Below, one piece after another: positions 7,266 to 32,250 of a stretch of DNA of 64,000 nucleotides. The notes under the pieces were generated by a model. It was not told the DNA's origin, ran no database searches, and saw only the letters and a list, made by a program, of their open reading frames with translations. The DNA is from Candidatus Eiseniibacteriota bacterium (GTDB taxonomy: Bacteria; Orphanbacterota; Orphanbacteria; Orphanbacterales; Orphanbacteraceae): positions 1-64,000 of the forward strand of contig JBDROZ010000053.1 in the NCBI GenBank assembly GCA_043809585.1, in the 5' to 3' direction. Both the position numbers and the translations under genes were made by a program. Position 1 is the stretch's first letter. Each line of letters begins with the position of its first letter.

Positions 7266-9023
7266 ATGAAGCCTCCCGTGCATAGCCGTTTTCGCATCGT
7301 TCTGTCCGCATTCCTCCTCCTCGCTCCCGCTCTCTCGATCGCGGAGTGGGACGTCGACGGCCTCGAGGAACTCCTTCCCCAGGCGCCGACGGCGGAGGAG
7401 CTCCGGATCATGGAGAGTCCCGAATACCTGTCGAAGACGGCCCGGGTCGATCCGCCCCCCGTGGGTCCGATCCGGAACTGCGGCGAGTGGGAGCCGTGCA
7501 CGGGGGTGCTCATTCGATACCCCCTCGGCCTGCCCTACGGCCTCCTCACCGACTTCGACGACGACGTCACGCTTCATGTCATCGTTTCCAGCAGCTACCT
7601 GAGCACGGCGAGGAGCAACTTCGTGGCGAACGGCGTGGACACGTCGAAAGTGGAGTGGCTCGTGGCCAGCAGCAACTCGATCTGGACCCGCGACTACGGC
7701 CCCTGGTTCGTCTTCGACGGCGACGGCGACGTCGGGATCGTCGACCACGAGTACAACCGCCCCCGCCCGCTCGACAACGCCATCAACGGCCTCTTCGGCG
7801 CCCAGCAGGGGATTCCCGTCTACGCCCACGGCATGCGCCACACGGGCGGCAATTACATGACCGACGGGTCCCTCTTCAGCATGTCCACCGACCTCGTTTA
7901 CGACGAGGCGTGGTCGTACCACGGCATGACGCCCGCCCAGGTGGACGCCCTCATGGAGGAGTACCTCGGGATCACCGCCTACAACGTGATCGACGACATC
8001 TCCACTTCGGGGATCCACCACATCGACACGTGGGCCAAGTTCCTGGACGAGGAAAACGTCCTGATCAAGCAGACCTGGACGGGCCACTACACCTACGCCA
8101 ATCTGGAACAGAGGGCGACCTTGATCGCGTCGCTCCTCTCCTCCACGGGGCGCCCCTACACGGTGCACCGGGTCTACTGCTATGCCATCGCGGGGGGGGA
8201 GCCGGCGTCGTACACGAATTCGTTGATCCTGAACGACAAGATCTATGTCCCGATCTTCGGGAACGCGACCTACGACAACCAGGCGATCGCCGCGTACCAG
8301 GCGGCGGCGCCCGGCTATGCGGTGGAAGGCTACTCCTACGGAGGCTTCATCACCGACGACGCCCTCCACTGCCGGGCGAAGGGCGTGATGGACCGGCAGA
8401 TGCTCCGGGTCGCGCACGTGCCGATCGGGGAGCCGATGCCGGGGCCGGTCACCTTGACCGCCTCGGTGGACGACCGGAGCGAGGCCGGCCTCGCCGGGGT
8501 CGACCTGCGCTATAGGTTCGAAGGGGGATCGTGGCAGACCGCGACGATGTCGAACACGATCGGGAACGACTACGAAGGCGTGATCCCGGCCCCGCCGGTC
8601 GACTCGACGACGGTCGACTACTACGTCCACGCCGAGGACAACGGCGGCCGGGCCGAGGGGAAGCCGCGGACCGAACCGGCCGCCTGGTACACCTTCCCGA
8701 TTCTCGGCGACGCGAGCACCGCCGTGGCGGAAGGGGCCCCGGAGGCCGTGGCCGTGCTCTACCCGAACCGGCCGAACCCGTTCAACCCGTCGACGACATT
8801 CCGCTTCGATCTTCGCGAGGAAGACCGGGTCGAACTTTTCGTCTTCGACGTCCGGGGACGGCAAGTCCGCCGTCTCGTCGACCGGTCCTTCCCCGGCGGG
8901 TCCCACGAGGTGACCTGGGACGGCCGGGACGACTCCGGCCGGGAGGTTCCCTCGGGCGTTTACTACTACCGGCTCCGGGCGGCGGGGATCGCCTACAGCC
9001 GTCCCGCGGTTCTCATCCGCTAA
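7266..9023 (+). CDS. Agmatine/peptidylarginine deiminase family protein with FlgD-Ig/T9SS-like C-terminal domain
   Basis: WTRDYGP, GGNYM, HHIDTW, DALHCR motifs; NRPNPFNPST tail; signal peptide. Confidence 0.88.
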   Translation: MKPPVHSRFRIVLSAFLLLAPALSIAEWDVDGLEELLPQAPTAEELRIMESPEYLSKTARVDPPPVGPIRNCGEWEPCTGVLIRYPLGLPYGLLTDFDDDVTLHVIVSSSYLSTARSNFVANGVDTSKVEWLVASSNSIWTRDYGPWFVFDGDGDVGIVDHEYNRPRPLDNAINGLFGAQQGIPVYAHGMRHTGGNYMTDGSLFSMSTDLVYDEAWSYHGMTPAQVDALMEEYLGITAYNVIDDISTSGIHHIDTWAKFLDEENVLIKQTWTGHYTYANLEQRATLIASLLSSTGRPYTVHRVYCYAIAGGEPASYTNSLILNDKIYVPIFGNATYDNQAIAAYQAAAPGYAVEGYSYGGFITDDALHCRAKGVMDRQMLRVAHVPIGEPMPGPVTLTASVDDRSEAGLAGVDLRYRFEGGSWQTATMSNTIGNDYEGVIPAPPVDSTTVDYYVHAEDNGGRAEGKPRTEPAAWYTFPILGDASTAVAEGAPEAVAVLYPNRPNPFNPSTTFRFDLREEDRVELFVFDVRGRQVRRLVDRSFPGGSHEVTWDGRDDSGREVPSGVYYYRLRAAGIAYSRPAVLIR

Positions 9024-9193: not shown

Positions 9194-11917
9194 ATGATGC
9201 GATCCTTGACGGGTCGGAACGCGCTCGTCCTGTTCGCGGTTCTCGGCGCGATGATGCTCTCGGCGTATGGCGCCCTCGCCCAAGATCTCGACGGCCCACG
9301 GGTCTACGCCAAGGAGTTCGAGGCGCCCCGGAAGGCCGAGGCGTACCGGAAGCTCTGGGACGCCGCGAAGCAGTCGGCGATTCAGGACGACTTCGACGCG
9401 CTCTACTACGAACTCGACCTCGACCTGAACCCGACCACCGCGACGCTCGCAGGAACGGTTCGGATGGACGCGACGCCGGTCGGCGTTTCGATCACCGAGG
9501 TGGTGCTCGATCTCCTCGACAACATGACGGTGATCGCCGTCCGTGTCGACGGTCTCCCGGCCGCGTTCGGTCATGCCGCCGACCGGGTCACGGTCCAACT
9601 CGGCGCCTCCTATTCGCCGGGGACGGTCTTCACCGTGGAGGTCGACTACGCCGGGACGCCGGACGAGGGATACGGCGCGTTCGGCTTCGACACCTACGAC
9701 GGGGCCCCGATGATCTGGAGCCTCTCCGAGCCTTACGGCGCAAAATCCTGGTGGCCGTGCAAGGACATCGTCGGTGACAAGGCGGACTCGTCGACCATGA
9801 AGGTCACGGTCCCGTCGAACTTGATCGTCGCCTCCAACGGCCTGCTCCTCTCCGCCGACAGCGTCAGCGTGCCGGGCAAAACGACGTACCACTGGTTCGA
9901 GAAGTACCCGATCAGCACCTATCTGATCTCCCTCGCCGCCTACCCGTACACGGTCTACTCGAACTGGTACTACTTCGACGCCGACTCCATGGAGATCCGC
10001 AACTTCGTCTTCCCGGGGAGCGTGGGGGCGGTCTCGGGGCTCACGGCCCAGTGCGCGACCCAGATCGGCTTCTTCGAAACCATCTTCGGCGACTACCCGT
10101 TCCGGGACGAGAAGTACGGCCACGCCGAGTTCCTCTGGGGGGGCGCCATGGAGCACCAGACCTGCTCCTCCATGGGATTCTGGAACGAGTACGTGGTCGC
10201 CCACGAGCTCGCCCACATGTGGTGGGGGGACATGATTTCCCCCGCGGCGTGGGAGCACATTTGGCTGAACGAGGGCTTCGCCACCTACGCGGAAGCGCTA
10301 TGGAGCGAGAACAAATACGGTATGGGCCAGTACCGGCAGGATATGAAGGCGACCCGCTACTACGGGCCGGGCACGATTTACGTGGACGACGTCACCGACC
10401 CGTGGCGGATTCTCGACGGCGATCTCTCCTACAACAAGGCGAACTGGGTCCTTCACATGCTCCGGCGGGTCGTCGGCGACACGAACTTCTTCGAGTGCCT
10501 CCGGCAGTGGCACGACTACGCCCCGGTCCTCTACGGGAACGGGACGACCGAAGACTTCCGGGTGGTGTGCGAGACCGTGAGCGGCATGGACCTCGCGTCG
10601 TTCTTCGAGCAGTGGATCTACAAGGAGTTCTACCCGATCTACGGATTCGAGTGGAGCGCCGCGCCGTCGGGGGGCGGCTACGAGGTGCAGCTCACGATCG
10701 AACAGAAGCAGACCCACTGGCTCTACACGATGCCCATCGACATCTTCATCGACATGGCCCCCCAGGACTCCACCATCGTGGTCCGCGACTCCCTCGCCTC
10801 CCAGAGCTGGACCTTTGAGGTCCCCTTCGAGCCCCTGGACGTCAAATTCGACAAGTTCAACGGCGGTTGGATCCTGAAGGGGTTGCAGGACGCCGTGGTC
10901 GACCCGACCTTCGACCGGGGCATCCTGGTAGTGAACGGCGTGAGTTGGACCAGCTACGGGAGCGAGATCACGAGCGCCTATGAGGACAGCGTCTTCTGGG
11001 GGAGCCTCGACTTCTCCTTCTGGGACTGCTTCGCGGCGCCGGCAAGCTATCCGTCGACGCTGCCCGCGCCCCTCGGTAACGGAACGAAAGTCCCCTCGGA
11101 CACGCTGAAGCAGTTCAGTGCCGTCGTCTGGGTGGGAAACAACTTCGGCGGCGACATCGATCCCTGGATCAACACGGCGATCCAAGACTACCTCGAGGCG
11201 GGGGGCAACGTACTGCTCCTCACCCGGATGGGCCAGGATTTCGTCAGTTCCGGTCTCGCCGACTACCTCGGCATCACCTGGGCGGGGGACGTGGAGAACA
11301 CGCTCACCAACTACGTGGCCCGCCATCCCGACCTGGTGAACCAAGGCTTCATCGGCAGCCAGTCCTTCAACGCCCTTTTCGACACGACCTTCCAGAGCGC
11401 CGAGACGGAGCTGCTCTTCACGTCCCACTCGTCCTCGGGCGTTCTCGGAAGCGGGGCGATGCGCGTCCCCGCCGCCGGCGGCACCCACCGTGCCGACGGC
11501 GCGAAGTTCGCGTTCCTGTCGGGGCGCCCCTACCGGATGAACCACGACCATCTCCGGGCGAATGTGGAGACCATTCTCCGGAACTTCTTCGGCGAGCCTT
11601 TCGACGCCACCGGCGTGGAGGGGGACGCGCCGCCGAAACCGGCGTACGAACTCGCCCAGAACCGGCCGAACCCGTTCAACCCGACGACGACGATTCGGTT
11701 CTCCTTGCCGGCCAAGGAGCGGGTTTCGCTGAACATCTACACCACCTCGGGTCGGCTCGTGAAGACCCTGGTGAACGGCGATCTCGACGCCGGCGCCCAC
11801 GCCGTCATCTGGGACGGCCTGAGCCAGTCGGGCAAGGAGACCGGCTCGGGTGTGTACTTCTACCGGATGGAGGCGGGCGACTTTCGAGAGACGAAGAAGA
11901 TGGTGCTCGTGCGATAG
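9194..11917 (+). CDS. M1 family metallo-aminopeptidase with FlgD-Ig/T9SS-like C-terminal domain
   Basis: GAMEH and HELAH...WLNEGFATY motifs; RBS aaggag before ATG 9194; NRPNPFNPTT tail. Confidence 0.9.
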   Translation: MMRSLTGRNALVLFAVLGAMMLSAYGALAQDLDGPRVYAKEFEAPRKAEAYRKLWDAAKQSAIQDDFDALYYELDLDLNPTTATLAGTVRMDATPVGVSITEVVLDLLDNMTVIAVRVDGLPAAFGHAADRVTVQLGASYSPGTVFTVEVDYAGTPDEGYGAFGFDTYDGAPMIWSLSEPYGAKSWWPCKDIVGDKADSSTMKVTVPSNLIVASNGLLLSADSVSVPGKTTYHWFEKYPISTYLISLAAYPYTVYSNWYYFDADSMEIRNFVFPGSVGAVSGLTAQCATQIGFFETIFGDYPFRDEKYGHAEFLWGGAMEHQTCSSMGFWNEYVVAHELAHMWWGDMISPAAWEHIWLNEGFATYAEALWSENKYGMGQYRQDMKATRYYGPGTIYVDDVTDPWRILDGDLSYNKANWVLHMLRRVVGDTNFFECLRQWHDYAPVLYGNGTTEDFRVVCETVSGMDLASFFEQWIYKEFYPIYGFEWSAAPSGGGYEVQLTIEQKQTHWLYTMPIDIFIDMAPQDSTIVVRDSLASQSWTFEVPFEPLDVKFDKFNGGWILKGLQDAVVDPTFDRGILVVNGVSWTSYGSEITSAYEDSVFWGSLDFSFWDCFAAPASYPSTLPAPLGNGTKVPSDTLKQFSAVVWVGNNFGGDIDPWINTAIQDYLEAGGNVLLLTRMGQDFVSSGLADYLGITWAGDVENTLTNYVARHPDLVNQGFIGSQSFNALFDTTFQSAETELLFTSHSSSGVLGSGAMRVPAAGGTHRADGAKFAFLSGRPYRMNHDHLRANVETILRNFFGEPFDATGVEGDAPPKPAYELAQNRPNPFNPTTTIRFSLPAKERVSLNIYTTSGRLVKTLVNGDLDAGAHAVIWDGLSQSGKETGSGVYFYRMEAGDFRETKKMVLVR

Positions 11918-15452: not shown

Positions 15453-17363
15453 GTGGGCCGGATCCAGAAGAAACAGCTTGGGGAAATCCTCGTTGAAGCG
15501 GGCCTGATCGGAGAGCAGGACCTCAAAAAGTATCTCTTCGAGAAACTGACCACCGACATGAGGCTCGGCGAGTTTCTCGTCGAGAAGGGGGTCTGCACCG
15601 AGGAGGACGTGGCCCGGGCCCTTTCCACCCAGCTCGGGTACGAGTACGCCGACCCGAAGGGGATCCACGTCGAGGCGGCGGCGATCTCCGCCATTCCCGA
15701 AAAGCTCGCCCGGAAGCACGAGATGCTCCCGATCCAGATTCACATGCGCGAATTGATGGTGGTGATGGCCGATCCGACGAACGTCGCCGCCGTGGAGGAC
15801 GCCCAGTTCGTCAGCAGCTACGAGATTCGACCCCTCGTCGCTCCCCGGAGCGCGTTGCTGAAGGCGATCGACAAACACTACAGCATCGAGTCCTCGGTGG
15901 AGGAGATCGTCAAGGACATCACCGCCTCGAACGTGGAGGTGCTCGACGATTCGAAGGAGAGCTCCGTCGACCTGAAGGAGGCGCAGAAGCAGAGCCAGGC
16001 GCCTCCCATCATCCGGATGGTGAACCAGATCATCGCCACCGCCGTGGACATGGGCGCCTCCGACATCCACATCGAACCGGCCCGGGAGTCGCTCACCATC
16101 CGCTACCGGATCGACGGGCATCTCCGCAAGGAGCTGGAACTCCCCAAGTGGGTCCAGGGGGCGGTGCTCTCCCGGGCGAAGCTGATGGCCCACATGGACA
16201 TCGCCGAGAAAAGGATTCCCCAGGACGGCCGCTTCGGCGTGCGCATCGGGATCCACCGCCTCGATCTCCGGGCCTCCACGCTCCCGACGAATTTCGGCGA
16301 GAAGATCGTCATGCGCATCCTGGACAGCGAAAGCTCCCAGGTCGGCATCGAGAACCTCGGAATGGAGGAGGAGATGAAGACGAGCTTCCTCTCCATCGTC
16401 TCCCGGCCCCAGGGACTCGTGCTCGTGACCGGCCCGACGGGGAGCGGGAAGACGACGACCCTCTACTCGGCCCTCGGCCACATCAACACGGTGGAAAAGA
16501 ACATCACCACCATCGAGGACCCGATCGAATACGAGCTCGCCGGCGTCAACCAGGTGCAGATCGACGAGAAGGCGGGTCGCAACTTCGCGAACGTCCTCTC
16601 TTCCATCTTGCGGCAAGACCCCGACGTGGTGATGGTCGGCGAGATGCGGGACCTCGAGACGGCGACGATCGCCCTTCAGGCGTCGCTGACGGGGCACCTC
16701 GTCCTCTCGACCCTCCACACCAACTCGACGATCGAGACGATCACCCGGCTCCGCAATCTCGGCCTCCCGTCATACCTGATCGCGTCGGCCGTTCACGGAA
16801 TCCTGGCCCAGCGTCTCGTGCGACGGATCTGCCCGAATTGCCGGGCTCCTGCGGAGCCGGCGCCGGAGAAACTGGTCCGTCTCGGCATCCCCCCGAGCCA
16901 GGCGTCGAAACACCGTTTCTTCGAGGGGGCCGGATGCGAGCAATGCGGCAAGACGGGCTACTCGGGGCGGACCGCGATTCACGAGTTTCTCGTGTTCAGC
17001 CGCCGGATCCGGGAGGCGGTGGCGGGGGAAGGGAACGAGTCGACGATCCGGCAGCTCGCCCTCGCGGAGAAGACGAGAATGCTTCTCGCCGCGGGCCTCG
17101 AGAAACTCGAGGGAGGTTTGACGACCGTGGACGAGCTGCTCCGGGCGATCCAGGTGGACGCCGCCTCGGGCACCGCCTGCCCCAAATGCGCCCAGGTGAT
17201 CAGTCCCGAATTCGTCGCCTGCCCGGCCTGCGGCCATCGCCTGATCCACACCTGCGGCGCCTGCCGCGCCGTGGTCGACCCCGACTGGGCGCACTGCCCC
17301 TACTGCTCCGCGGAGAGAGGGGCCGCCCCCCGGATGGGGGCCGCGACCGTGAGCGTCCGGTAG
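15453..17363 (+). CDS. PilB/GspE-family ATPase with N-terminal MshEN-like domain and C-terminal double zinc ribbon
   Basis: ASDIHIEP, PQDGR, GPTGSGKTTT, TIEDPIEY, LRQDPD, TGHLVLSTLH; RLGEFLVEKG; four C-terminal CxxC. Confidence 0.92.
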   Translation: MGRIQKKQLGEILVEAGLIGEQDLKKYLFEKLTTDMRLGEFLVEKGVCTEEDVARALSTQLGYEYADPKGIHVEAAAISAIPEKLARKHEMLPIQIHMRELMVVMADPTNVAAVEDAQFVSSYEIRPLVAPRSALLKAIDKHYSIESSVEEIVKDITASNVEVLDDSKESSVDLKEAQKQSQAPPIIRMVNQIIATAVDMGASDIHIEPARESLTIRYRIDGHLRKELELPKWVQGAVLSRAKLMAHMDIAEKRIPQDGRFGVRIGIHRLDLRASTLPTNFGEKIVMRILDSESSQVGIENLGMEEEMKTSFLSIVSRPQGLVLVTGPTGSGKTTTLYSALGHINTVEKNITTIEDPIEYELAGVNQVQIDEKAGRNFANVLSSILRQDPDVVMVGEMRDLETATIALQASLTGHLVLSTLHTNSTIETITRLRNLGLPSYLIASAVHGILAQRLVRRICPNCRAPAEPAPEKLVRLGIPPSQASKHRFFEGAGCEQCGKTGYSGRTAIHEFLVFSRRIREAVAGEGNESTIRQLALAEKTRMLLAAGLEKLEGGLTTVDELLRAIQVDAASGTACPKCAQVISPEFVACPACGHRLIHTCGACRAVVDPDWAHCPYCSAERGAAPRMGAATVSVR

Positions 17364-17535: not shown

Positions 17536-18129
17536 CTACGAGCCGGCGCGCGTGTAAACCATCTCCATGGTCCGGGTCTCGGTGCCGTCCGCGGCCACGT
17601 CGTACATCTCCATCACCGCCTCGTCCTTCGAGACGGAGCGGACCACCATCTTGTAGGTCTTCGTTCCGCCGGTCATGATGTCCGGGTAGTGGCCCGTTTC
17701 TGTGATCACCGAGCAGTGGTCGGTGCACGATCCTTCGCTGGTCGTCATCAGCGTTCCCCACGTGTCGATCCAGAAGGAGGTGTGCTTGCCGGAGAGGTTG
17801 TCGAAGCCGGAGATCCCGATACCTTCGAAGGGCATGCCCATCGACATTCCGGAGAATCGCTGATCGAGAAAGCGGCCGCCGAGGACGAGGCGGAACTCGG
17901 CGGTCCCCGTCGTCTCCGCCGGGGGCTCGCCCGGCTTCATCCACATCTTCCCCGTCGCCTTCCAGGTCCCGACCATGTCCTTCATGTGGGCGTGATGAGG
18001 ACCGGGGGCCGCCACCTCCATCCACTTGGCCATCTCCGCATCGTGGTCCTCCCCGGCGAAGGGGGCCGTCCCCGTCACGAGGATCGCCAGCAGGGCGGCG
18101 CAGGTCCCGAACCGAAATGCGTGGTTCAT
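17536..18129 (-). CDS. DUF1579 family exported protein
   Basis: PGPHH..MVGTW...LGGRFL...PFEGIGISGFDN...WIDTWGT pattern; RBS aaggag before ATG 18129. Confidence 0.82.
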   Translation of the reverse strand: MNHAFRFGTCAALLAILVTGTAPFAGEDHDAEMAKWMEVAAPGPHHAHMKDMVGTWKATGKMWMKPGEPPAETTGTAEFRLVLGGRFLDQRFSGMSMGMPFEGIGISGFDNLSGKHTSFWIDTWGTLMTTSEGSCTDHCSVITETGHYPDIMTGGTKTYKMVVRSVSKDEAVMEMYDVAADGTETRTMEMVYTRAGS

Positions 18130-18257
18130 ATTCGTCTCCTTCGGTGATGTTTGCGGGAAAGGGGATCCGGTCTGAATATAGGAAGGAGGAGAGGCCCGCG
18201 CCAGGGGCGTCGGGGGCGCGCGGGGCATGAGCGGGTAACTACTTGCCGGGTTGGTCA

Positions 18258-18638
18258 TTAGCCTGGAAACGGCTGGGCCCGGACCCAGCTTTCGTCGATG
18301 GTGTGGTACACCTCGCCGGTAATCGTGAAGAGTACCGCTTCGGTGATGAAACGAACTTCGTCCACCGGCACGGGGAGGTCGAGTCCGGTGATCCGGCTCC
18401 ACTCGCCGGACACGCCGAGATGCCACGATTCCCCCGCCGGGGTCCACCAGTAGCGGCCGTCCCCGCCGACGATTCCGACGCCGATCGGGTCGTCGCTCAC
18501 CTGGGGCCTCCAATTCGCCCTTCCCGCGTCCGCGCCGGTGCTGAGCGCCACGGCCGCCCCCTCCGCACCGGAGCCCAAGAGATGAAGCACGAGCAGAACC
18601 GCGCCGAGCGCGACGATCTTCACGAATCGGCAGGGCAT
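18258..18638 (-). CDS. Small exported hypothetical protein
   Basis: RBS gggagga, hydrophobic N-terminus; no recognised family. Confidence 0.5.
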   Translation of the reverse strand: MPCRFVKIVALGAVLLVLHLLGSGAEGAAVALSTGADAGRANWRPQVSDDPIGVGIVGGDGRYWWTPAGESWHLGVSGEWSRITGLDLPVPVDEVRFITEAVLFTITGEVYHTIDESWVRAQPFPG

Positions 18639-19080: not shown

Positions 19081-19336
19081 CGCAGAACCGGACCCCTTTG
19101 TTTTGCGATGGCCGGCGGATCGGGCGAGAGAGAGGGGTCGCCGGACCGGCCCATCCTGTTGGACGGACTCTTCTCCGACACTTTTTGCTTCTCTAATGTA
19201 TAGGAGCCGCGAACTTGATGCGGGTCAAGTCGCGCGGTGCGTTTCCGCTTCGCCTTGTGCCCCAAATATGCTATAGTTTCGAGGGTTACAGCAGTAGCTC
19301 TCTTGCCTTCGCACCCACACCCAAGGAGGTCTACCG

Positions 19337-20380
19337 ATGCGAGTTCGTGCGGTGGTCGTGCTCGCCATCCTCGCCCTGGCCGCCGGTTCCGCCGCCGGAA
19401 ATCCGCGGTTGGTCGTGGTCGAGAATTTCACCAATACCGGCTGAGGCGGCTGTAACGCCATCAAAGTGGCGATGGACGCCATCTTTGAGGCGCATGCGGG
19501 GCAGGTTGCCCCGATTCGGCCTCATGTCAGTTGGCCCCTCCCGAGCGATCCGTTCTATCTCGCCAACACGCTCGACTCCAATGCGAGGGTGTCGTATTAC
19601 GGAGTGGGATACGTCCCCACCTTCCGCTTCGAGGGCATGTTTCTGAAGGACCCATCCAACTTCTTGACCTACGCCCAGTGGTACGCCTACGTGGAATCCA
19701 CCCTGGATAGCCTCTACAACGTACCGAGGCCCGAGTTCCGTATCAATTTCAGCCAGTACGTCGACGGCGCCTGGATTCGCACCAATTTCGACATCATCGC
19801 CGAGCAGGGCGTGAGCGGCGACTACCGGATCACGATGGCCGTGGTCGAGGATTCCGCCTACAGCGGACCAAACCTCTTCCGGTTCGTCATGCGGGATTAC
19901 GTCCCCAACGCGTACGGGATGCTGGCGACCATGACCACCGGCGACTCGCTCCACTACGAGTGGCCCTACCGGAATACCAGCGGGGCGACGGACATCACCA
20001 CCATGGTCTTCGTGCAACGGGTGTCGGACAATCAGATCCTCCAGGCGATCTCCGTGCCTCCCTTCGGCACGACCACGGGAATCGGTTCGGGCGAAGCTCC
20101 CCTCCGCGTGGTGCTCGCGCCGAACGCCCCCAACCCGTTCAACCCGGCCACGACGATCGGCTACACCCTCGACCGGGCCCGTCCGGTCCGGCTCGCCGTG
20201 TACGATCAGGCGGGCCGGCTCGTGAGCGAGCTGGTCCGGGGCGCGGGAGAACCGGGCAGCCACACGGCGGTGTGGGACGGCCGGGACCGCTTCGGACACG
20301 AGGTCGGGAGCGGCGTCTATTTCTACCGGCTCGACGCGGGGCCCCTCTCGGAGACCCGCAAAATGACATTGATCCGATGA
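19337..20380 (+). CDS. Secreted Omp28/thioredoxin-like selenoprotein (UGGC motif) with FlgD-Ig/T9SS-like domain
   Basis: RBS aaggaggt, ATG 19337, signal peptide, ENFTNTG-TGA(19442)-GGC in frame with ORF 19466-20380; downstream hairpin. Confidence 0.85.
19456..19492 (+). promoter_or_regulatory. Putative bacterial SECIS element
   Basis: cgcc-a-tcaaag-tggcg[atgga]cgcca-t-ctttga-ggcg; bulged U, G-containing loop starting 27 nt after TGA. Confidence 0.7.
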
Positions 20381-20658
20381 TAGGGAACGGCTAGTCGAGC
20401 CTTCTTTGGCCCCGGGCATCCGCCCGGGGCTTCTTCACAGGGGCCCCGAGCGAATCGGCCGGCGGCCGTGCTGACCTTGATGTTTCAAGAGACCCGCACG
20501 TCTTGCGCCGAGTCGGGGAGCCAGGCGCGCCGAAATCAAAGCTGCAGTTTTGTGGAATTGGGGCTAGTATCGGTCCGATTCCCGGCAAAGGGTCGGAATC
20601 GCCCTTCTGCCGGCCCCGATTCGACCGATGATAGGAATGGGGAACGAAACCCCTCGAG

Positions 20659-21723
20659 GTGACCCGAATGAACACCCCGACATGGATATTTCTCGGCGCC
20701 CTTGCCCTGGCTCCGCCCGGCGGGGCCCGCGCGTTCCATGACGGCGGCGTCGCGAGCTGCCACGGATGCCACATCATGCACGACAGCGAGGACGGGTACC
20801 CCGGTCCGGGGGGCTACCCGATGCTTCTCATCGCCGACACGCCGACCGAGGTCTGCCTCACCTGTCACGCCGGCGGCTATGGAAACGTCCTCGGCGACAA
20901 CCTCCTCATGCCCCCCGACGAAAAGGGCGCCGGGAACTTCGTCTTCCTTCTCGAGGACAACTTGAACGACGGTCCGAACGGGGCCACCCAGCCGATCCCG
21001 GGGCAGGCGGCGGGGCACAGCGTGATCGCCCCCTCCTACGGGCTCCAGCAGGACACGGACTGGACCTATGCCCCCGGGGGGACCTTCCCCTCGAGCCAGC
21101 TGGGTTGCACAAGCTGTCACGATCCTCACGGCGCCGACACGTTCCGTCTTCTCCGGGGCGTGGGGCCGTTGCAGGGGGGCATCTTCGATTTCGTGAACCC
21201 GGCCCCCGATGGCATCGGAATCGACATCGGCCCGACGGGAGGGGCGGAAGCCTCGAACAACCACAGCGCCTATCGATCCGGTTTCACTGCGTGGTGCGCG
21301 AACTGCCACGGCGACTATCACGCGCCCCCCGGCGATTTCGGTTTCAAGCACGACCCGGACCGCTCCTTCGGCGGAGCCTCCTCGCGCCGGTACAACGAGT
21401 ACAACGGCGACGACGACCCCGGTGGCGGGGACGTGGCGAGCGCCTATCTCCCCCTCGTCCCCTTCGAAGACACGAACATGACGACCGATAACTTCTTCGG
21501 TCCGTCGATGGTCAGCCGGGTGATGTGCCTGTCCTGCCATCGCGCCCACGCCTCGTCCGCCCCCCGGGCGGGCCGGTGGGACTTCAACGTCGACCTTCTC
21601 GATCAGGACGGCATCGCCTCCGGCTCCTGGCCGATACCGAATCCCTACGGGCCGAACCAGGGACAGCTCTGCGCCAAGTGCCATCGGCACCACGTGGCGG
21701 ACGGAGTCGGCTTCCAGGATTGA
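20659..21723 (+). CDS. Hexaheme c-type cytochrome, OmcS-like
   Basis: Six CxxCH motifs; mature N-terminus FHDGGVASCHGCHIMH; APGGTFP, CHDPHG, WCANCH, AYLPLVPFE, CLSCHRAHAS co-linear with recalled OmcS sequence. Confidence 0.88.
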   Translation: MTRMNTPTWIFLGALALAPPGGARAFHDGGVASCHGCHIMHDSEDGYPGPGGYPMLLIADTPTEVCLTCHAGGYGNVLGDNLLMPPDEKGAGNFVFLLEDNLNDGPNGATQPIPGQAAGHSVIAPSYGLQQDTDWTYAPGGTFPSSQLGCTSCHDPHGADTFRLLRGVGPLQGGIFDFVNPAPDGIGIDIGPTGGAEASNNHSAYRSGFTAWCANCHGDYHAPPGDFGFKHDPDRSFGGASSRRYNEYNGDDDPGGGDVASAYLPLVPFEDTNMTTDNFFGPSMVSRVMCLSCHRAHASSAPRAGRWDFNVDLLDQDGIASGSWPIPNPYGPNQGQLCAKCHRHHVADGVGFQD

Positions 21724-21741: not shown

Positions 21742-24700
21742 CTACCAAGCGCCCGACTGCCACATCTCGGGAACCGAGTCCGATCCGTCCCCGCCGATGT
21801 CGGAGAGGATCTCTCTCGATCGCCTCGCGTATTCCGCCGCCCGCTCCGCCGACTCTCCTTCCTCGAGCACTCGGGCGAGGTTCTCGTACGCCCGAGCGAG
21901 GCCTTGCCTGTTGCCGAGCCGCTCGAAGAGACGGACGCTCTCCCGGAAGTGCTCGGCCGCCCGCGCCCCGTCCCCGCTCTCCCCGTAGACGAGTCCGAGG
22001 TTGTTGAGGCAGGAGGCGAGGCCGTAGGTTTCGCCCGTCTTCTCGCAGATCGACCGGCATCGGGCGAGGTGCCGGATCGCGGCCTCCCATGCGCCCCGCT
22101 TTCCATGGATGACGCCGAGGTTGTTGCACGCCTGCGCCGTTCCCCACTCGTCGCCGAGGCTCTTCATCATCTTCAGGGCGACGGCGCCCATGCGGGCCGC
22201 CTCCTCCAGCCGGGACCGGTGGGCGTGGACGACGGCGAGGCCTGCGTAGATCCGCGCCACTTCGCCGGGCTCGACGCCCGGCCCGACCGCGCGAAGCCCC
22301 GTCTCGAAACTCTCCTTCGCCTCGTCGCACCGTCCCCACTTCTCGAAGACCCGGCCCCGGCGCCGGTGGAGGGCCACGATGAGCCCCGCCTCCCGGGCGC
22401 CGGCAAGGGCCCGGTCGTACGCGTCGAGCGCCATCTTGAAGTCGCCCATCCGGTAGTGAACGTCGCCGAGGTCGGCGGAAGCGGAGGCGAGGTCTTCGTC
22501 GCCGAGCCCGGGATCGCCCCCCCGGGCCAGCGTGATCGCCCGTTCCAGGTAGGCGATCGCTTCGGGGTTGGCGGAGACCCGCACCGCCCCCCGGGCGGCC
22601 CGGTTGAGATAGGCGAAGGCCCGGACGGGGACACCTCCCCTTTCGAAGTGATGGGCCAATGCGGGGGTCATCTCCTCTTTCCGGTCCGGCCATTTCCCCT
22701 CGATCGCGTTCCCCGCCCGGCGGTGAAGCTCCCGTCGTTCGCGCCGGAGGAGGCTGTTGTAGGCGACATCCGCGGTGATGGCGTGCTTGAACGTGAACCC
22801 GTCCCCTTCGCCGGCGCCGGGGGGGAGGAGGAAACCGCGGCGGCAGAGGAGATCGATCGCCTCCCCGAGGACGGGTCCGTCCCTCTCCTCGCCGGCGAGG
22901 GGGGCGAGGAGGGTGCGGGGGAAGGTGCGGCCGAGGACCGAGGCGGTCTGGAGGACCCGTTTCGTGGCGGGCGGGAGCCGGTCGATTCGGGCCATGATCA
23001 CGCCCTGAACCGTGCCGGGGAGGGTGACGGGACCGGCCTCGGACGGTGCGGGACCGCCCGACTCGGCGAGGGCGCCCGCCATCTCTTCGAGGAAGAAAGG
23101 ATTCCCTTCGGCCCCACGGAGCAGGGCGCCCCGGGTCTCGGCGGTGATGCCGGACGGGGGGAGGAGCCGATCGATCAGACGGGCGCTCTCTTCTTTCGAG
23201 AGGGGCGCGATCTCGATCGTCCGGTGCCGGTCCCCGCCCGCCGATTCGAGGCGCGCCCGTGCGTCGCCTATCCTCCCCTCGCCGGGGCGGAAGAGGAAGA
23301 TCTGGAGGACCGGTGCGGTCTCCCCGAGGGGGGCGAGGGCCTCGAGGAAACCGGCGGTGGAGGAATCCATCCAGTGGATGTCCTCCCACACGATCACGAG
23401 GGGACGGCGGGACGCCGTCCGGGCGACGACAAAGCGGAACCCCTCGAATAGTCGTTCCCGGAGGAGGTCGGCGCCGAGGTGGTCGAAACGGCCTTCCTCT
23501 TCGGCCGTCAGGGGAATGTCGAGAAGCCGGGCGAGGCAGGAACGGAGTTCCTCCCCGGAGAGGGCTCCCCCGGGCGGTTCCTCCGGGCGGAGGTCGCCGA
23601 GGAAGACCCGGAGCGCCGTCTCCCGCTCCTCCCGGGGTCCTTCCGGATCGGCGCCGAGCATCTGGGCGAGCACGCTTCTGACGGGCCATGCGCCCGTCCC
23701 CTCGCCGTAGGAGGCGCAGCGGCCGTCGACCCAGGGCGCGTCCGGGGAAGCCCGTCTCCGCGCCTCCTCGACCAGGCGGCTCTTGCCGACGCCCGCCTCC
23801 CCTTCGATCGCGACGGTCCCCCCCCGGCCCGAAGCGAGATCCTCGATCGATTCGAGAAGGGCGCCCAATTCCCGCTGGCGCCCCACGAGGGGGGAACGGT
23901 GCGCCTCCGCTTCCGTGGCCCCCCGCCGCGCGCCGAGGAGACGGAAGGCGGGAACCGGGGCCGATTTCCCCTTCACCGCCAGAGGGCCCACATCTTCCAG
24001 ATCGAAGACGCGCTTCACGAGCCCCGCCGTCGCGCCGGTCAGGAGAATGGTCCCCGGCCGGGCGGCGCTCTCCATGCGGGCCGCGAGGTTGACCGCGTCC
24101 CCCATGGCCGTGTACTCGACCCGGAGGTCCGAGCCGACCTCGCCCACCACCACGAGACCCGTGTTGATCCCGACCCGCACCTGGAAACCGGAGATCCCCC
24201 GCTCCCCTTCGAGCTTCTCGCCGTATCGCTTCGCCCCCTCGATCATGTCCGACGCGGCCCGGCAGGCCCGCTCCGGATCATCCTCGTGGGCGATCGGGGC
24301 GCCGAAGAAGGCGAGCACCGCGTCCCCCATGAGCCGGGCCAATGTCCCCTCGTGCCGGAAGACCGGTTCGATCAGGGTCTCGAGGGCGCCGTTCATGATG
24401 TCCATCACCTCTTCGGGGTCGAGATGCTCGGCGAGGGCCACCGAGCCGTGGACATCGCAGAAGAGGATCGTGATCACCCGCCGCTCTCCCGATACGCGGC
24501 CGCGGGTGGCGGCGAGCTGGTCCACGTACTCCCGGGGCATGAGGCGGCGGAGGGCGTCCTCGATCCCGGCGGGCGGGGGGGACGTCTTCGCGTTCCCCTC
24601 GACCGGCGCGCCGCAGGAGAAGCAGAACTTCGCGGAGCCGGGGAGGGAGGTCCCGCAGGAGGGACAGCCCGAGGGGGGCGCCGCACCGAGGGGGGCGCCG

Positions 24701-24759
24701 CAGCCCATGCAGAAGACGGCCCCCTCGGGATTCTCGGTGCGGCAGGCGGAACAGATCAT
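21742..24759 (-). CDS. Class III nucleotide cyclase with double zinc ribbon, AAA ATPase and TPR domains
   Basis: ILFCDVHGS, GDAVLAFFG, GDAVNLAARME, GEAGVGKSRL Walker A, C-terminal TPRs. Confidence 0.9.
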   Translation of the reverse strand: MICSACRTENPEGAVFCMGCGAPLGAAPPSGCPSCGTSLPGSAKFCFSCGAPVEGNAKTSPPPAGIEDALRRLMPREYVDQLAATRGRVSGERRVITILFCDVHGSVALAEHLDPEEVMDIMNGALETLIEPVFRHEGTLARLMGDAVLAFFGAPIAHEDDPERACRAASDMIEGAKRYGEKLEGERGISGFQVRVGINTGLVVVGEVGSDLRVEYTAMGDAVNLAARMESAARPGTILLTGATAGLVKRVFDLEDVGPLAVKGKSAPVPAFRLLGARRGATEAEAHRSPLVGRQRELGALLESIEDLASGRGGTVAIEGEAGVGKSRLVEEARRRASPDAPWVDGRCASYGEGTGAWPVRSVLAQMLGADPEGPREERETALRVFLGDLRPEEPPGGALSGEELRSCLARLLDIPLTAEEEGRFDHLGADLLRERLFEGFRFVVARTASRRPLVIVWEDIHWMDSSTAGFLEALAPLGETAPVLQIFLFRPGEGRIGDARARLESAGGDRHRTIEIAPLSKEESARLIDRLLPPSGITAETRGALLRGAEGNPFFLEEMAGALAESGGPAPSEAGPVTLPGTVQGVIMARIDRLPPATKRVLQTASVLGRTFPRTLLAPLAGEERDGPVLGEAIDLLCRRGFLLPPGAGEGDGFTFKHAITADVAYNSLLRRERRELHRRAGNAIEGKWPDRKEEMTPALAHHFERGGVPVRAFAYLNRAARGAVRVSANPEAIAYLERAITLARGGDPGLGDEDLASASADLGDVHYRMGDFKMALDAYDRALAGAREAGLIVALHRRRGRVFEKWGRCDEAKESFETGLRAVGPGVEPGEVARIYAGLAVVHAHRSRLEEAARMGAVALKMMKSLGDEWGTAQACNNLGVIHGKRGAWEAAIRHLARCRSICEKTGETYGLASCLNNLGLVYGESGDGARAAEHFRESVRLFERLGNRQGLARAYENLARVLEEGESAERAAEYARRSREILSDIGGDGSDSVPEMWQSGAW

Positions 24760-27783: not shown

Positions 27784-27860
<77 letters not shown>

Positions 27861-30494: not shown

Positions 30495-31557
30495 GCCGCT
30501 CCCTCCGTTTCGCGATCGCCGCTCTCGTGATCGCCGCGCCGGCGGGGGTCGAGACGCGGGAGTGGAACGAGTCCGCCCCGTTCCGGGCGCCCCGGCGCCT
30601 CGAGATCGTCCTCCCCCGGGGATCGGTTACCGTCGACGGCGAGCCGGGGGGGACGGTCCTTTCGGTCCGGGCGAAGGGCTCGGTGGAGGGGACGGACGGG
30701 AGGGGGGCGGAGGCGATTCTGGGCGCCATGGGAGTGACGCTCGAGGAAGGGGAGGGGGTGACCCGTCTCGATGCCCGGCTTCCGGAGGACCCGAAGAGCG
30801 ATGATCGTTCCTTCTTCGCGCGACTCTTCGACCGGGGGCGCCCCCCGCGGAGCCGGATAGACATGGATATTTTGGTCCCGTCCGGATCGTCGATCGAGGT
30901 GCGGGTCGGAGGGGCGGACGTGACGATCCGCCGGATCCGGGGGGAAGTGTCGGTGACGGGCGAGCGGGGGGACATCATGTCTCCGGCGTCGGCGGGAATC
31001 TTCGGGTCGCCGTGGATCGGGGGAGTCTGTCGATCGGGGATGTCGCCGGAGATGCGGACCTCCACACCGCCCGGGGGGAGATCGAGGCGAGGCGGATCGG
31101 CGGCTCCCTACGGGCGCGGGGGAGCCGGAGCCCGATTTACGTATACGACATCGGAGGGAGAGGGGAACTCAGCACCGTGTCGGGGGATGTGCTCGTGGAG
31201 GAATGCGCGGGGAACCTCCAGGTGAAGGTGGTCGGGGGAAACGTCGACGTGATCCGTGCGGGGGCCGATCTCTTTGTTTCCGCCCGCCGGGGGAACATCA
31301 TGGTGCGGGTGGGCGAATCGCCCCCGGGAATCCGGTACGAGCTGGTCTCCGACCGGGGGGACATCGACCTGGCCCTGCCGGGAGATTGGGGGGTCCGGAT
31401 CGATGGGTTCACCGGGTCCGGTACGATTCAATGCTTCTTACCTATTGTCATTGAAGAAATTGCGAGAAATCGACTGGCCGGAATCGCGGGGGAGGGGGGC
31501 TCGGAGGTCCGGCTCGACTCTCGAACCGGAGATATCCGCGTTTCCCGGACCGACTGA
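30491..31557 (+). pseudogene. DUF4097-like beta-repeat protein, frameshifted near 30977
   Basis: N-terminal half in the frame of ATG 30491, C-terminal half in the frame of 31012-31557; one base missing at GAC ATC (x)AT GTC TCC. Confidence 0.72.
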
Positions 31558-31560
31558 AAC

Positions 31561-31586
31561 GAAACCCGGGAAGGGCCCTTTGCGTA
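31561..31586 (+). promoter_or_regulatory. Possible ECF promoter GAAAC-N17-CGTA
   Basis: In the short gap before the anti-sigma gene. Confidence 0.4.
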
Positions 31587-31620
31587 GGGAGATCCAGAAA
31601 GGCAATCGGGGGCACCGCAC

Positions 31621-32250
31621 ATGAAACCGCATTGGAACGACGACGAGATCCAGGCTTACTTGGAAGAGGGGAGCGCGGATGGCGCGCGGCGGGCCCACCT
31701 CGAGAGCTGCCCCCGCTGCTCGGCGCGCCTCGAACGGTTTCGTTCCCTCTTTTCTCTTCTGGAGGGCTTCGAGTTTCCCGCCCCCTCCGCCGCTTTCGAG
31801 CGGGCGGTGATGGAACGGCTCTTCCCGAGCCGCGCCCCGGCAAGGACCCACGTCCGCCGGGCCCCGGTTCCCCGGTGGGCCCGCGCCCTGGCGCCGGCGA
31901 TGCTCCTGGCCGGATCGGCGGTCTTTTACTCGTTTCTCCGTCTCGCCGGCGTTCTGGGGGACAACCTGGTCCGCTGGGCGCTGCAGAGCGAGCCCGGGCT
32001 CCTCTCGTTCGGGGCCCGCAAGTTGACTTTGCTCCTCCCCGTCCTCTCGCGCATGATCGACGGACTCGTCGAATTCGTGTCCGTGGCCGTTCCGGTCGGG
32101 CGCGCGATGCTCCTGGTGGGGCACACCGCGGAGGCCCGCGTGATGATCGTCGCGTCGGCGGGGCTCCTCGTCCTGTTCGCCTTGGGCTGGGGGACGCGGA
32201 TCTTCCGCTCCCGAATCAAGGGAGGGCACCATGTCCTGCTTCTCTGGTAG
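31621..32250 (+). CDS. Zinc-finger anti-sigma factor, membrane-anchored
   Basis: HLESCPRC (HxxxCxxC) motif; TM segments; in the ECF operon. Confidence 0.85.
   Translation: MKPHWNDDEIQAYLEEGSADGARRAHLESCPRCSARLERFRSLFSLLEGFEFPAPSAAFERAVMERLFPSRAPARTHVRRAPVPRWARALAPAMLLAGSAVFYSFLRLAGVLGDNLVRWALQSEPGLLSFGARKLTLLLPVLSRMIDGLVEFVSVAVPVGRAMLLVGHTAEARVMIVASAGLLVLFALGWGTRIFRSRIKGGHHVLLLW

What the first reader, a model, noticed from the sequence alone, without database searches (positions are those of the whole stretch)
19337..20380. Hidden secreted selenoprotein: Omp28/thioredoxin-like UxxC protein with a T9SS-like export domain
Seen: a strong RBS (aaggaggt) and ATG 19337 encode a signal peptide (MRVRAVVVLAILALAAGSAAG), then NPRLVVVENFTNTG-TGA-GG-C, exactly in frame with ORF 19466-20380, which otherwise lacks a signal peptide. 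TGA is codon 36. Known: E-x-F-T-x-x-x-C-x-x-C is the thioredoxin-fold motif of Omp28-type proteins, and Sec commonly replaces the first Cys. A bulged hairpin follows at 19456-19492. Inference: a 347-aa exported selenoenzyme, possibly displayed at the cell surface; well-studied bacterial selenoproteins are mostly cytoplasmic or periplasmic oxidoreductases. Standard gene callers truncate it.
Basis: partly seen in the sequence, partly recalled or inferred. Interest (0 to 1): 0.9.

Follow-up and report, generated by a model that had tools for sequence, protein, structure and literature searches.

The report
Exported thioredoxin-like selenoprotein gene, mis-annotated
The in-frame stop codon almost certainly encodes selenocysteine in the active site of an exported, thioredoxin-like surface protein that gene callers cut short, but it is a divergent relative of a selenoprotein family already predicted in 2008.

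Summary
ATG 19337 opens a 347-codon frame with one in-frame TGA (19442-19444, codon 36).

- **Cys in homologs:** the TGA aligns with the first Cys of a CxxC motif in 23 of 23 database homologs that cover the site.
- **Repeated TGA:** the same TGA sits at the same motif position in 13 of 16 loci read in 9 related genomes, including two further paralogs in this genome.
- **SECIS:** the hairpin at 19456-19492 is stable (z -4.8) and kept by compensatory changes.
- **Sec machinery:** the genome has selA, selB, Sec-containing selD and tRNA-Sec.
- **Fold:** the model (pLDDT 91) puts U36-x-x-C39 at the thioredoxin active-site position. Closest solved structure: HBP35 of Porphyromonas gingivalis.
- **Export:** the tail is homologous to type IX secretion sorting domains, and the genome has PorU and SprA.

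It is a divergent relative, below cut-off, of NCBIfam NF045500, which is 'hypothetical protein GOS_C' of Zhang and Gladyshev 2008. This scan has reported the same kind of gene in at least 10 other genomes. Export, surface display and activity are inferred.

The parts
19323..19329 (+). Ribosome-binding site AAGGAGG, 7 nt before the ATG
   Evidence: Read directly from the sequence.
19337..20380 (+). Whole selenoprotein gene: 347 codons with one in-frame TGA, plus the TGA stop at 20378-20380 (TAG follows at 20381-20383)
   Evidence: Translation. The six-frame search reports one open frame with '1 TGA'.
19337..19399 (+). Signal peptide, residues 1-21: basic n-region, hydrophobic h-region and small-residue c-region, with no lipobox Cys
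   Evidence: Read by eye. Full-length homologs share the same layout. The model gives helix 2-15 with lower pLDDT. No signal-peptide predictor was available.
19442..19444 (+). UGA codon 36, read as selenocysteine: first position of the U-x-x-C redox motif (C39 = TGT 19451-19453)
   Evidence: Cys in 23 of 23 covering homologs. TGA at the same motif position in 13 of 16 related loci and in 4 distant-lineage loci.
19456..19492 (+). Bacterial SECIS-type hairpin. The conserved core helix spans 19461-19488 and the apical loop AUGGA is at 19472-19476.
   Evidence: -21.9 kcal/mol, z -4.83, 0 of 200 shuffles. In 12 Sec-form genes 81% of cells pair against 28-44% when slid, 9 of 14 pairs show compensatory change, and 0 of 500 shuffles reach the score. 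RNAalifold finds the same core.
19472..19474 (+). False start codon (M46) used by gene callers. It is the AUG in the SECIS apical loop.
   Evidence: P0002 (302 aa) aligns from query residue 46 at its own residue 1. 11 of 16 N-truncated database homologs start at this column.
19406..19726 (+). Thioredoxin-like domain, about residues 24-130: strand 26-32, U36xxC39 at the start of helix 37-52, and invariant P94 before strand 95-98
   Evidence: AlphaFold2 model, pLDDT 91.3. Profile hits to 2axo, HBP35 and thioredoxins. P94 is present in 40 of 40 rows.
19727..20065 (+). Omp28-like beta-sandwich, about residues 131-243
   Evidence: All-beta in the model. Profile hit to Omp28 structure 2r2c over residues 100-243, E 1.3e-4. 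Pfam Omp28 scores 16.3 bits, below its cut-off of 34.9.
20108..20377 (+). C-terminal Ig-like sorting domain, residues 258-347: FlgD_ig and T9SS type A CTD-like
   Evidence: PF13860 scores 33.9 bits (cut-off 27). TIGR04183 scores 22.8 bits (cut-off 23). 40 of 40 family members match TIGR04183 at E<=1e-3. Profile hits to the PorU CTD (6za2) and a CTD chain (8glj_D).
20408..20431 (+). GC-rich 10-bp hairpin after the stop codon; a possible terminator
   Evidence: Fold (z -1.92 for the 62-nt stretch). The consensus scan did not call it a terminator because the T-tail is too weak.

Best explanation
This is a genuine selenoprotein gene. The ribosome starts at ATG 19337. SelB with Sec-tRNA(Sec), recruited by the hairpin at 19456-19492, reads UGA 19442 as selenocysteine, giving a 347-aa precursor. 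The signal peptide takes the precursor across the inner membrane. The C-terminal Ig-like domain, homologous to type IX secretion type A sorting domains, then directs it across the outer membrane, probably for attachment to the cell surface. The mature protein is a thioredoxin-fold domain packed against an Omp28-like beta-sandwich. Sec36 is the attacking nucleophile and Cys39 the resolving residue (selenenylsulfide/selenol-thiol cycle), so the protein would act as an extracytoplasmic thiol-disulfide-type oxidoreductase. HBP35 of P. gingivalis, which has reported thioredoxin activity, is the nearest studied analogue.

Shown here: Sec/Cys correspondence, a conserved SECIS, the Sec machinery, the fold, homology of the tail, and T9SS genes in the genome. 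Inferred: actual Se incorporation, export route, surface attachment, substrate and reductant.
For: 1. **Cys at the UGA column.** 16 of 16 full-length homologs and 23 of 23 covering rows have Cys there. C39 is kept in the same 23 rows.
2. **Recurrence.** In the 10 genomes held for the phylum there are 18 near-full-length matches, 15 with exactly one in-frame TGA and 3 with none. In the 16 I could read, all 13 TGAs sit at E-x-F-T-N-x-x-U-x-x-C and the 3 others have Cys. This excludes a one-off sequencing error.
3. **Distant lineages.** The same U-x-x-C is seen in four loci of 'same domain only' genomes.
4. **SECIS.** The hairpin alone has z -4.83. On 12 Sec forms 81% of cells pair against 28-44% in the slid controls, 9 of 14 pairs have changes on both sides, and 0 of 500 shuffles reach the score. 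RNAalifold finds the same core. Eleven of 12 apical loops contain G. The three Cys forms fold no better than shuffles (z +0.2, +1.0, +1.8).
5. **Machinery.** selA 535 bits, selB 359 bits, selD 361 bits with its own in-frame TGA at G-U-A-A-K, and tRNA-Sec 73 bits with anticodon TCA.
6. **Fold.** pLDDT is 91.3, UxxC lies between strand 26-32 and helix 37-52, and P94 is invariant. Top Foldseek hit is HBP35, 5y1a, E 1.7e-10.
7. **Export.** FlgD_ig scores above cut-off. TIGR04183 matches 40 of 40 family members. K342 near the C-terminus is at least 90% conserved. The genome has two PorU genes (551 and 520 bits), SprA (532.7 bits summed) and a PorV-like gene beside PorU. Forty-nine loci in the genome match the query at E<=1e-20, nearly all through this tail.
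Against: - No experimental or read-level evidence: the public contigs do not cover 19442.
- This protein's own TIGR04183 score (22.8) is just under the cut-off (23), and PF18962 is far under (13.3 against 27).
- The PorV match is below cut-off (107 against 250 bits).
- The common helix register fits some Sec forms poorly (G005_C31b 6 of 14, G005_C31a 8 of 14, G003_C2 7 of 14). Two Cys forms reach 8 and 9 of 14, so the per-sequence counts overlap. Those Sec forms do have hairpins in other registers.
- I dropped G003_C2 from the 12-sequence alignment before counting.
- No Rfam SECIS family matches.
- No known reductant exists outside the outer membrane, and no redox partner is conserved next to the gene.
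Confidence: 0.85

Rival explanations
1. The TGA is a true stop. The functional product starts downstream (GTG 19466 or ATG 19472) and is a cytoplasmic protein of about 302 aa without a signal peptide or redox motif. The upstream 35 codons would be a separate small ORF or a leader.
For: This is how gene callers annotate it (P0002). A review passage reports that HBP35 also yields N-terminally truncated forms from internal starts.
Against: - The 35 upstream codons are conserved in frame, with the E-x-F-T-N motif, in 13 of 13 TGA-bearing loci.
- Cys homologs are continuous through this point.
- A protein with a secretion tail but no signal peptide makes little sense.
- No RBS-like purine run lies before 19466 or 19472 (by eye).
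Confidence: 0.04
2. The gene is a pseudogene, or the TGA is an assembly or sequencing error for TGC/TGT.
For: The read-level check failed for lack of coverage. The genome is a 123-contig assembly.
Against: - Fifteen of 18 homologous loci in 9 other-or-same genomes carry exactly one TGA, at the same column wherever read.
- There are no other stops or frameshifts in the frame.
- A covarying hairpin follows the TGA only in the TGA forms.
Confidence: 0.02
3. The UGA is decoded, but as another residue: Cys loaded on tRNA-Sec when selenium is scarce, or Trp/Gly by near-cognate read-through or an altered genetic code.
For: None was obtained here. It cannot be excluded without protein chemistry.
Against: - TGA is used as a normal stop in this genome, including by this gene itself.
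- The selA and selB matches read open with no internal stops.
- The conserved SelB-type hairpin and the complete Sec pathway fit Sec best.
Confidence: 0.04
4. It is a real selenoprotein, but not a catalytic oxidoreductase. Instead it would be a surface ligand-binding protein (haem, metal or chalcogen) that uses the Sec/Cys pair as ligands, by analogy with haem-binding HBP35.
For: HBP35 is the closest structure and is described as a haem-binding T9SS cargo. No reductant is evident outside the cell. A multihaem cytochrome c gene lies 280 nt downstream.
Against: - HBP35 shares only 13% identity.
- The canonical thioredoxin active-site geometry and the invariant Pro are kept.
- The cytochrome neighbour is not conserved beside 15 homologous loci, within the roughly 1.5-kb flanks held.
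Confidence: 0.25

Closest known systems
Hypothetical protein GOS_C (Zhang and Gladyshev 2008, PMC2398784) = NCBIfam NF045500 'Omp28-related selenoprotein'
   Same: Both are predicted bacterial selenoproteins with a Trx-like fold, a UxxC motif and many Cys homologs. The paper reports 74 Sec and 312 Cys sequences (passages read). The 2026 review table equates GOS_C with NF045500 and UxxC (passage read). This protein matches the NF045500 profile over positions 34-263.
   Different: The score is 34.8 bits against a cut-off of 200. None of 301 related genomes reaches the cut-off, so this is a separate, divergent branch. Profile positions 264-377 are not matched; here the tail is a FlgD_ig/T9SS-type domain instead. 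In the passages and word searches I ran, neither the paper nor the two reviews mention a signal peptide, secretion or T9SS for GOS_C. The GOS_C sequences are in a supplement I could not open, so no direct alignment was made.
HBP35, 35-kDa hemin-binding protein of Porphyromonas gingivalis (PDB 5Y1A)
   Same: It is the best structural match over the whole length (Foldseek E 1.7e-10, TM 0.50/0.55), and the profile hits its CxxC region. It is a T9SS cargo with a type A CTD and reported thioredoxin activity (review passages).
   Different: It has Cys, not Sec, and only 13% identity. Haem binding has not been examined here. It comes from a different phylum.
Atu2684 / DUF1223 thioredoxin-like protein (PDB 2AXO)
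   Same: It is the best sequence-profile hit among solved structures (E 5.8e-8 over residues 13-179) and a good fold match (TM 0.60 on the target). Some homologs carry PF06764.
   Different: It has no T9SS-type tail and no Sec, and its function is unknown.
Omp28 of P. gingivalis (Pfam PF11551, PDB 2R2C)
   Same: The beta-sandwich part (residues 100-243) matches the profile at E 1.3e-4. Twenty of 40 family members match NF033782 'Omp28 family outer membrane lipoprotein' at E<=1e-3.
   Different: Pfam Omp28 scores 16.3 bits against a cut-off of 34.9 for this protein. The solved Omp28 chain matches only residues 100-243 of the profile, not the UxxC region.
Extracytoplasmic Sec forms of DsbA-, DsbG- and Trx-like proteins
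   Same: These are UxxC selenoproteins of thiol-oxidoreductase families listed in Table 2 of PMC2398784. That they act in the periplasm is my recollection of those families, not something stated in the passages I read.
   Different: They are not reported with an outer-membrane secretion tail.

Membership tests
Bacterial selenoprotein gene (SelB/SECIS-dependent UGA decoding) | In-frame UGA aligned with Cys in homologs | tested here: met
   16 of 16 and 23 of 23 homologs that cover the column have Cys. 13 of 16 related loci have TGA there and 3 have Cys.
Bacterial selenoprotein gene (SelB/SECIS-dependent UGA decoding) | Stem-loop shortly downstream of the UGA, conserved in Sec forms | tested here: met
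   z -4.83. 81% of cells pair against 28-44% when slid, with 9 of 14 compensatory pairs. The loop starts 27 nt after the UGA, and 11 of 12 loops contain G. The published distance and loop rules are recalled, not checked.
Bacterial selenoprotein gene (SelB/SECIS-dependent UGA decoding) | selA, selB, selD and tRNA-Sec in the genome | tested here: met
   All four are above their curated cut-offs. ARAGORN calls tRNA-SeC with anticodon TCA.
Bacterial selenoprotein gene (SelB/SECIS-dependent UGA decoding) | Selenium shown in the protein | not testable with these tools
   Needs 75Se labelling or mass spectrometry.
NCBIfam NF045500 Omp28-related selenoprotein (GOS_C) | Score at or above the curated cut-off (200 bits) | tested here: not met
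   34.8 bits. The best paralog in this genome reaches 49.8 bits. 0 of 301 genomes are over the cut-off.
NCBIfam NF045500 Omp28-related selenoprotein (GOS_C) | UxxC motif in a Trx-like fold | tested here: met
   The motif is given as UxxC for the family.
NCBIfam NF045500 Omp28-related selenoprotein (GOS_C) | C-terminal part of the profile (positions 264-377) | tested here: not met
   The match covers profile positions 34-263 only.
T9SS type A CTD cargo | TIGR04183 / PF18962 above cut-off | tested here: inconclusive
   TIGR04183 scores 22.8 against 23 bits and PF18962 scores 13.3 against 27 bits for this protein. However, 40 of 40 family members match TIGR04183 at E<=1e-3, best 8.7e-14, and sources name P0007 and P0012 'T9SS type A sorting domain-containing protein'.
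T9SS type A CTD cargo | N-terminal signal peptide | tested here: met
   The n/h/c layout was read directly and is shared by full-length homologs. No predictor was run.
T9SS type A CTD cargo | T9SS core genes in the same genome | tested here: met
   Two PorU genes and SprA score over their cut-offs. The PorV-like gene next to PorU is below cut-off. The GldK/L/M/N homologs were not searched.
T9SS type A CTD cargo | Conserved Lys in the last residues (motif E, per PMC10202324) | tested here: met
   K342 is at least 90% conserved, 6 residues from the end. The requirement comes from a passage.
T9SS type A CTD cargo | T9SS-dependent secretion shown | not testable with these tools
   Needs experiment.
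Thioredoxin-fold thiol-disulfide oxidoreductase | C/U-x-x-C at the N-terminus of helix 1 after strand 1, and a conserved Pro before strand 3 | tested here: met
   Secondary structure of the model. P94 is present in 40 of 40 rows. The cis conformation of the Pro was not checked.
Pfam PF11551 Omp28 | Score at or above the gathering cut-off (34.9 bits) | tested here: not met
   16.3 bits. This indicates partial homology only.

The most novel reading that the evidence does not exclude
These proteins are working selenoenzymes delivered by the type IX secretion system to the outside of the outer membrane. That would make them a class of cell-surface bacterial selenoprotein. In this Eisenbacteria-like lineage the Sec form is the rule (15 of 18 loci) and has been kept in at least two paralog lines. 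A redox-active Sec outside the cell would imply an unknown extracellular electron supply, or a non-catalytic use of selenium such as ligand capture. Word searches of the held library found no paper linking selenoproteins with T9SS, Omp28 or Eisenbacteria.
Probability: 0.35. Interest if true: 0.55.

Novelty: new member of a known kind. Interest (0 to 1): 0.3.

Why it matters
In practice, annotation pipelines cut this gene and most of its close relatives at the Sec codon. They then start the protein at an AUG inside the SECIS loop, so databases hold a headless protein with no signal peptide and no active site. In the large protein library, 6 of the 10 best representatives and 14 of the 150 listed start there.

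Biologically, it adds a well-supported, paralog-rich branch from a little-studied phylum to the GOS_C/Omp28-related selenoprotein group. It also links that group to type IX secretion, which the papers I read do not discuss. It does not reveal a new mechanism.

Tried and rejected
- **Read-level check of the TGA.** One study, three DNA runs kept as contigs. They cover only 19803-20166 and 20300-20500, so they say nothing about 19442. No RNA holder was listed.
- **Rfam.** Nothing but a tRNA at gathering thresholds, and no SECIS family in a permissive scan of 19380-19560, only chance-level hits.
- **Conserved neighbourhood.** The four flanking window genes (T2SS-E ATPase, DUF1579, multihaem cytochrome c, cyclase-AAA-TPR) gave no tblastn hit in the roughly 1.5-kb flanks of 15 homologous loci. 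I therefore dropped an operon or redox-partner argument.
- **Promoter and terminator scan.** No sigma-70-like site was found, and the GC hairpin after the stop was not called.
- **Membership in NF045500 and Pfam Omp28.** Rejected on score.
- **Direction of Sec/Cys change.** The tree needs 4 changes of the label, of which at least 2 are forced by well-supported branches. It is rooted at the midpoint only, so I make no claim about which state is ancestral.
- **Haft 2022 preprint.** I looked in 10.1101/2022.07.06.499078 for this family (passages only). It describes other extracellular selenoproteins (SaoB, SaoC), not this one.
- **Earlier scan notes for this genome.** None on selenocysteine.
Full report
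**Observation**

The window has AAGGAGG at 19323-19329 and an ATG at 19337. A 21-residue N-terminus follows with the basic, hydrophobic and small-residue layout of a signal peptide. Then comes E-N-F-T-N-T-G, a TGA at 19442-19444 (codon 36), and G-G-C. The TGA is in frame with the listed ORF 19466-20380. Read through, the product is 347 aa. It ends at TGA 20378-20380, which is followed at once by TAG.

My stored translation P0001 also carries that terminal TGA as a 348th residue. This is an artefact of the range I gave, and it has no bearing on the results.

The protein that public gene calling made from this contig (P0002, 302 aa) begins at M46.

**Is the TGA a Sec codon?**

Four independent lines agree.

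*Homologs have Cys at the TGA position.* In an alignment of 19 homologs, all 16 full-length ones have Cys at the TGA column and Cys three residues later. The other three are N-truncated. In a 40-row alignment, 23 of 23 database rows that cover the column have Cys at both positions. The remaining 16 rows are N-truncated, and 11 of them start exactly at the M46 column.

*The TGA recurs at the same position.*
- A six-frame search of the 10 genomes held for this phylum listed 18 near-full-length matches. Fifteen have exactly one in-frame TGA and three have none (159 weaker matches were not listed).
- I could read 16 of the 18. G006:C11 and G002:C312 got no locus.
- All 13 TGAs fall at E-x-F-T-N-x-x-U-x-x-C, and the three others have Cys there.
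- Two of the Sec loci are further paralogs in this same genome: C69:10639-11673 and C106:7669-8724.
- The same U-x-x-C occurs in four loci from genomes related only at domain level.

*A conserved hairpin follows the UGA.*
- In this gene the hairpin is at 19456-19492: -21.9 kcal/mol, z -4.83, and 0 of 200 shuffles fold as well.
- I aligned 12 Sec-form genes without gaps from the UGA. I left out G003_C2, whose hairpin lies in another register.
- A 14-pair helix pairs in 81% of cells, against 28-44% when the 3' side is slid by 1-3 columns.
- Nine of 14 pairs show changes on both sides, and 0 of 500 column shuffles reach the covariation score.
- RNAalifold predicts the same core on its own.
- One paralog (G000_C106) changes AAA/UUU to CGU/AUG. 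This swaps Lys and Phe for Arg and Met in the protein while keeping the pairing.
- The three Cys forms fold no better than shuffles (z +0.2, +1.0, +1.8).

There are results against a clean picture. In the common register, three Sec forms pair only 6, 7 and 8 of 14, while two Cys forms reach 8 and 9 of 14. The weak Sec forms do have strong hairpins in other registers. No Rfam SECIS model matches, but I do not count this against the hairpin: from recall, not from a call, bacterial SECIS elements are specific to each gene family.

*The genome has the Sec machinery.* It contains selA (535 bits), selB (359 bits) and selD (361 bits). The selD gene itself has an in-frame TGA at G-U-A-A-K. There is also a tRNA-Sec (73 bits, anticodon TCA).

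**What the protein is**

Pfam places only the C-terminal FlgD_ig domain above its cut-off; Omp28 is a weak hit. NCBIfam's best hit is NF045500 'Omp28-related selenoprotein', at 34.8 bits against a cut-off of 200.

A profile of the family against PDB sequences hits several groups:
- Atu2684/DUF1223 (2axo, E 5.8e-8, residues 13-179)
- HBP35 (5y1a, residues 17-63)
- Omp28 (2r2c, residues 100-243)
- FlgD Ig domains, the PorU C-terminal domain and a T9SS sorting-domain chain
- weakly, many thioredoxins and DsbA-like proteins over residues 20-63

The AlphaFold2 model is confident (pLDDT 91.3, pTM 0.67). It has four parts:
- strand 26-32, then U36-x-x-C39 at the start of helix 37-52, with the invariant P94 before strand 95-98. 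This is the thioredoxin active-site arrangement.
- an all-beta domain at 134-240
- a disordered linker at 245-251
- a beta-sandwich at 258-345

Foldseek's best PDB match is HBP35 of Porphyromonas gingivalis (E 1.7e-10, TM 0.50/0.55, 13% identity), followed among relevant hits by 2axo.

**Export**

The tail's own TIGR04183 score is 22.8 bits, just under the cut-off of 23. However, all 40 of 40 family members match TIGR04183 at E<=1e-3. A Lys six residues from the end is at least 90% conserved. A review describes a conserved Lys of this kind in motif E as needed for secretion (passage).

The genome encodes two PorU sortases (551 and 520 bits) and SprA (532.7 bits summed). A PorV-like gene lies next to one PorU, though below cut-off. 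Forty-nine places in the genome match the query at E<=1e-20, nearly all through this tail. I did not search for the GldK/L/M/N homologs.

Export through Sec and then T9SS is therefore a well-founded inference, but nothing here shows it.

**Context**

The gene looks monocistronic. Its neighbours are a T2SS-E-type ATPase (15453-17363, +), a DUF1579 protein (17536-18513, -), a multihaem cytochrome c (20659-21723, +) and a cyclase-AAA-TPR protein (21742-24759, -). None of these is found beside 15 homologous loci within the flanks held.

A 10-bp GC hairpin follows the stop codon at 20408-20431. The consensus scan does not call it a terminator.

**Evolution**

I built a tree of 25 rows: the 16 loci plus nine Cys-form database proteins of my choosing. 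It needs four Sec/Cys changes, at least two of them forced by well-supported branches.
- This gene groups weakly (84/59) with one set of Sec genes from genus g6.
- The paralog on C106 groups strongly (99/98) with a second set.

So at least two Sec paralog lines seem to predate those genera. The root is arbitrary, so no direction of change is claimed.

**What is known**

- Zhang and Gladyshev 2008 (PMC2398784; passages read) predicted 'hypothetical protein GOS_C'. They reported 74 Sec sequences, 312 Cys homologs, a Trx-like fold, a UxxC motif, SECIS-like elements and no known function.
- A 2026 review (PMC13188914; table passage) lists GOS_C with model NF045500 and motif UxxC.
- A 2022 review (PMC9312934; table passage) lists GOS_C under cd02973.

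The kind is therefore in print and in NCBI's model library. This protein and its relatives score far below the NF045500 cut-off: 0 of 301 genomes pass. They also lack a match to the last third of that profile. I therefore treat them as a divergent branch rather than as members.

In the two reviews, 'secreted' does not occur in the main text. 'Signal peptide' does not occur in the 2026 review or in the 2008 paper.

Library searches found nothing relevant:

| Search terms | Papers found |
|---|---|
| Omp28 + selenoprotein | 0 |
| selenoprotein + Eisenbacteria | 0 |
| selenoprotein + 'type IX secretion' | 1, unrelated |
| selenocysteine + T9SS | 2, each term once; not opened |

These are word searches of the held library only. 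The GOS_C sequences are in a supplement that I could not open.

HBP35 is described as a T9SS cargo with thioredoxin activity and a role in haem use (review passages).

**Earlier notes of this scan**

A word look-up returned 10 earlier findings of the same kind in at least 10 other genomes, one of them labelled Eisenbacteria. They reached the same verdict and gave me the lead to PMC2398784, which I then checked myself. They are not independent evidence.

**Mis-annotation in databases**

I searched the catalytic part (residues 1-245) against 1.84 billion representatives. It found 2000 proteins at E<=1e-3, 352 at E<=1e-10 and 5 at E<=1e-30. Among the 150 listed, 14 begin at their residue 1-4 opposite query residue 46-65. 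Six of the ten best do so. This is the pattern expected for Sec forms cut at the UGA, but I did not see their DNA.

**Verdict**

This is a real, well-supported selenoprotein gene whose annotation is wrong. Mechanistically it is an exported thioredoxin-fold UxxC protein with a T9SS-type sorting tail. In novelty it is a new member of a known kind. I score interest at 0.3.

The organism name is not established. The nearest named homologs are labelled Candidatus Eisenbacteria by their sources.

Noticed in passing
L010:1531-1533 (G000:C19, within selD match 30755-31678): The genome's selD has its own in-frame TGA at G-U-A-A-K, so selenophosphate synthetase is itself a selenoprotein here.
   Followed up: partly
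G000:C69:10639-11673 (-) = L035; G000:C106:7669-8724 (-) = L042; G000:C31:13998-14648 (-) = L060: There are two further Sec paralogs of this gene in the same genome, each with one TGA at the same motif. A more distant Cys-form relative (C-x-x-C) has a different architecture and no such tail.
   Followed up: partly
L037/L027 (G005:C31:105996-107048 and 107232-108296): One related genome has two Sec-form paralogs in tandem, 184 nt apart. Their SECIS hairpins have quite different sequences.
   Followed up: partly
G000:C39:1357-4836 and 109688-113119; C39:510-1151; C72:12519-16787: Type IX secretion genes (two PorU, a PorV-like gene beside one of them, SprA) are present in a genome whose nearest named relatives are Candidatus Eisenbacteria, outside Bacteroidota. 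Dozens of ORFs carry the same C-terminal domain.
   Followed up: partly
window 8766-8978 (+), 11573-11914 (+), 58932-59510 (+): Inside this window there are two more ORFs ending in the same sorting-type domain, and a weak PorV-like match at 44.6 bits.
   Followed up: no
window 20659-21723 (+): A multihaem cytochrome c gene (paired CXXCH motifs) lies 280 nt downstream on the same strand. It is not conserved beside homologs.
   Followed up: partly
L042:2395-2451 (-) versus window 19442-19498: In paralog G000_C106 the SECIS stem changes AAA/UUU to CGU/AUG. This forces a coupled Lys-to-Arg and Phe-to-Met change in the encoded peptide, a clear case of RNA structure constraining protein sequence.
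   Followed up: yes
window 27784-27860 (-): tRNA-Met (CAT), the only RNA gene found in the window.
   Followed up: no
window 63747-64000 (-), running to C53:64268: There is a weak SelD/AIR-synthase-family match (28.2 bits, far below cut-off) at the window's end. It is probably another member of that superfamily, not selD.
   Followed up: no
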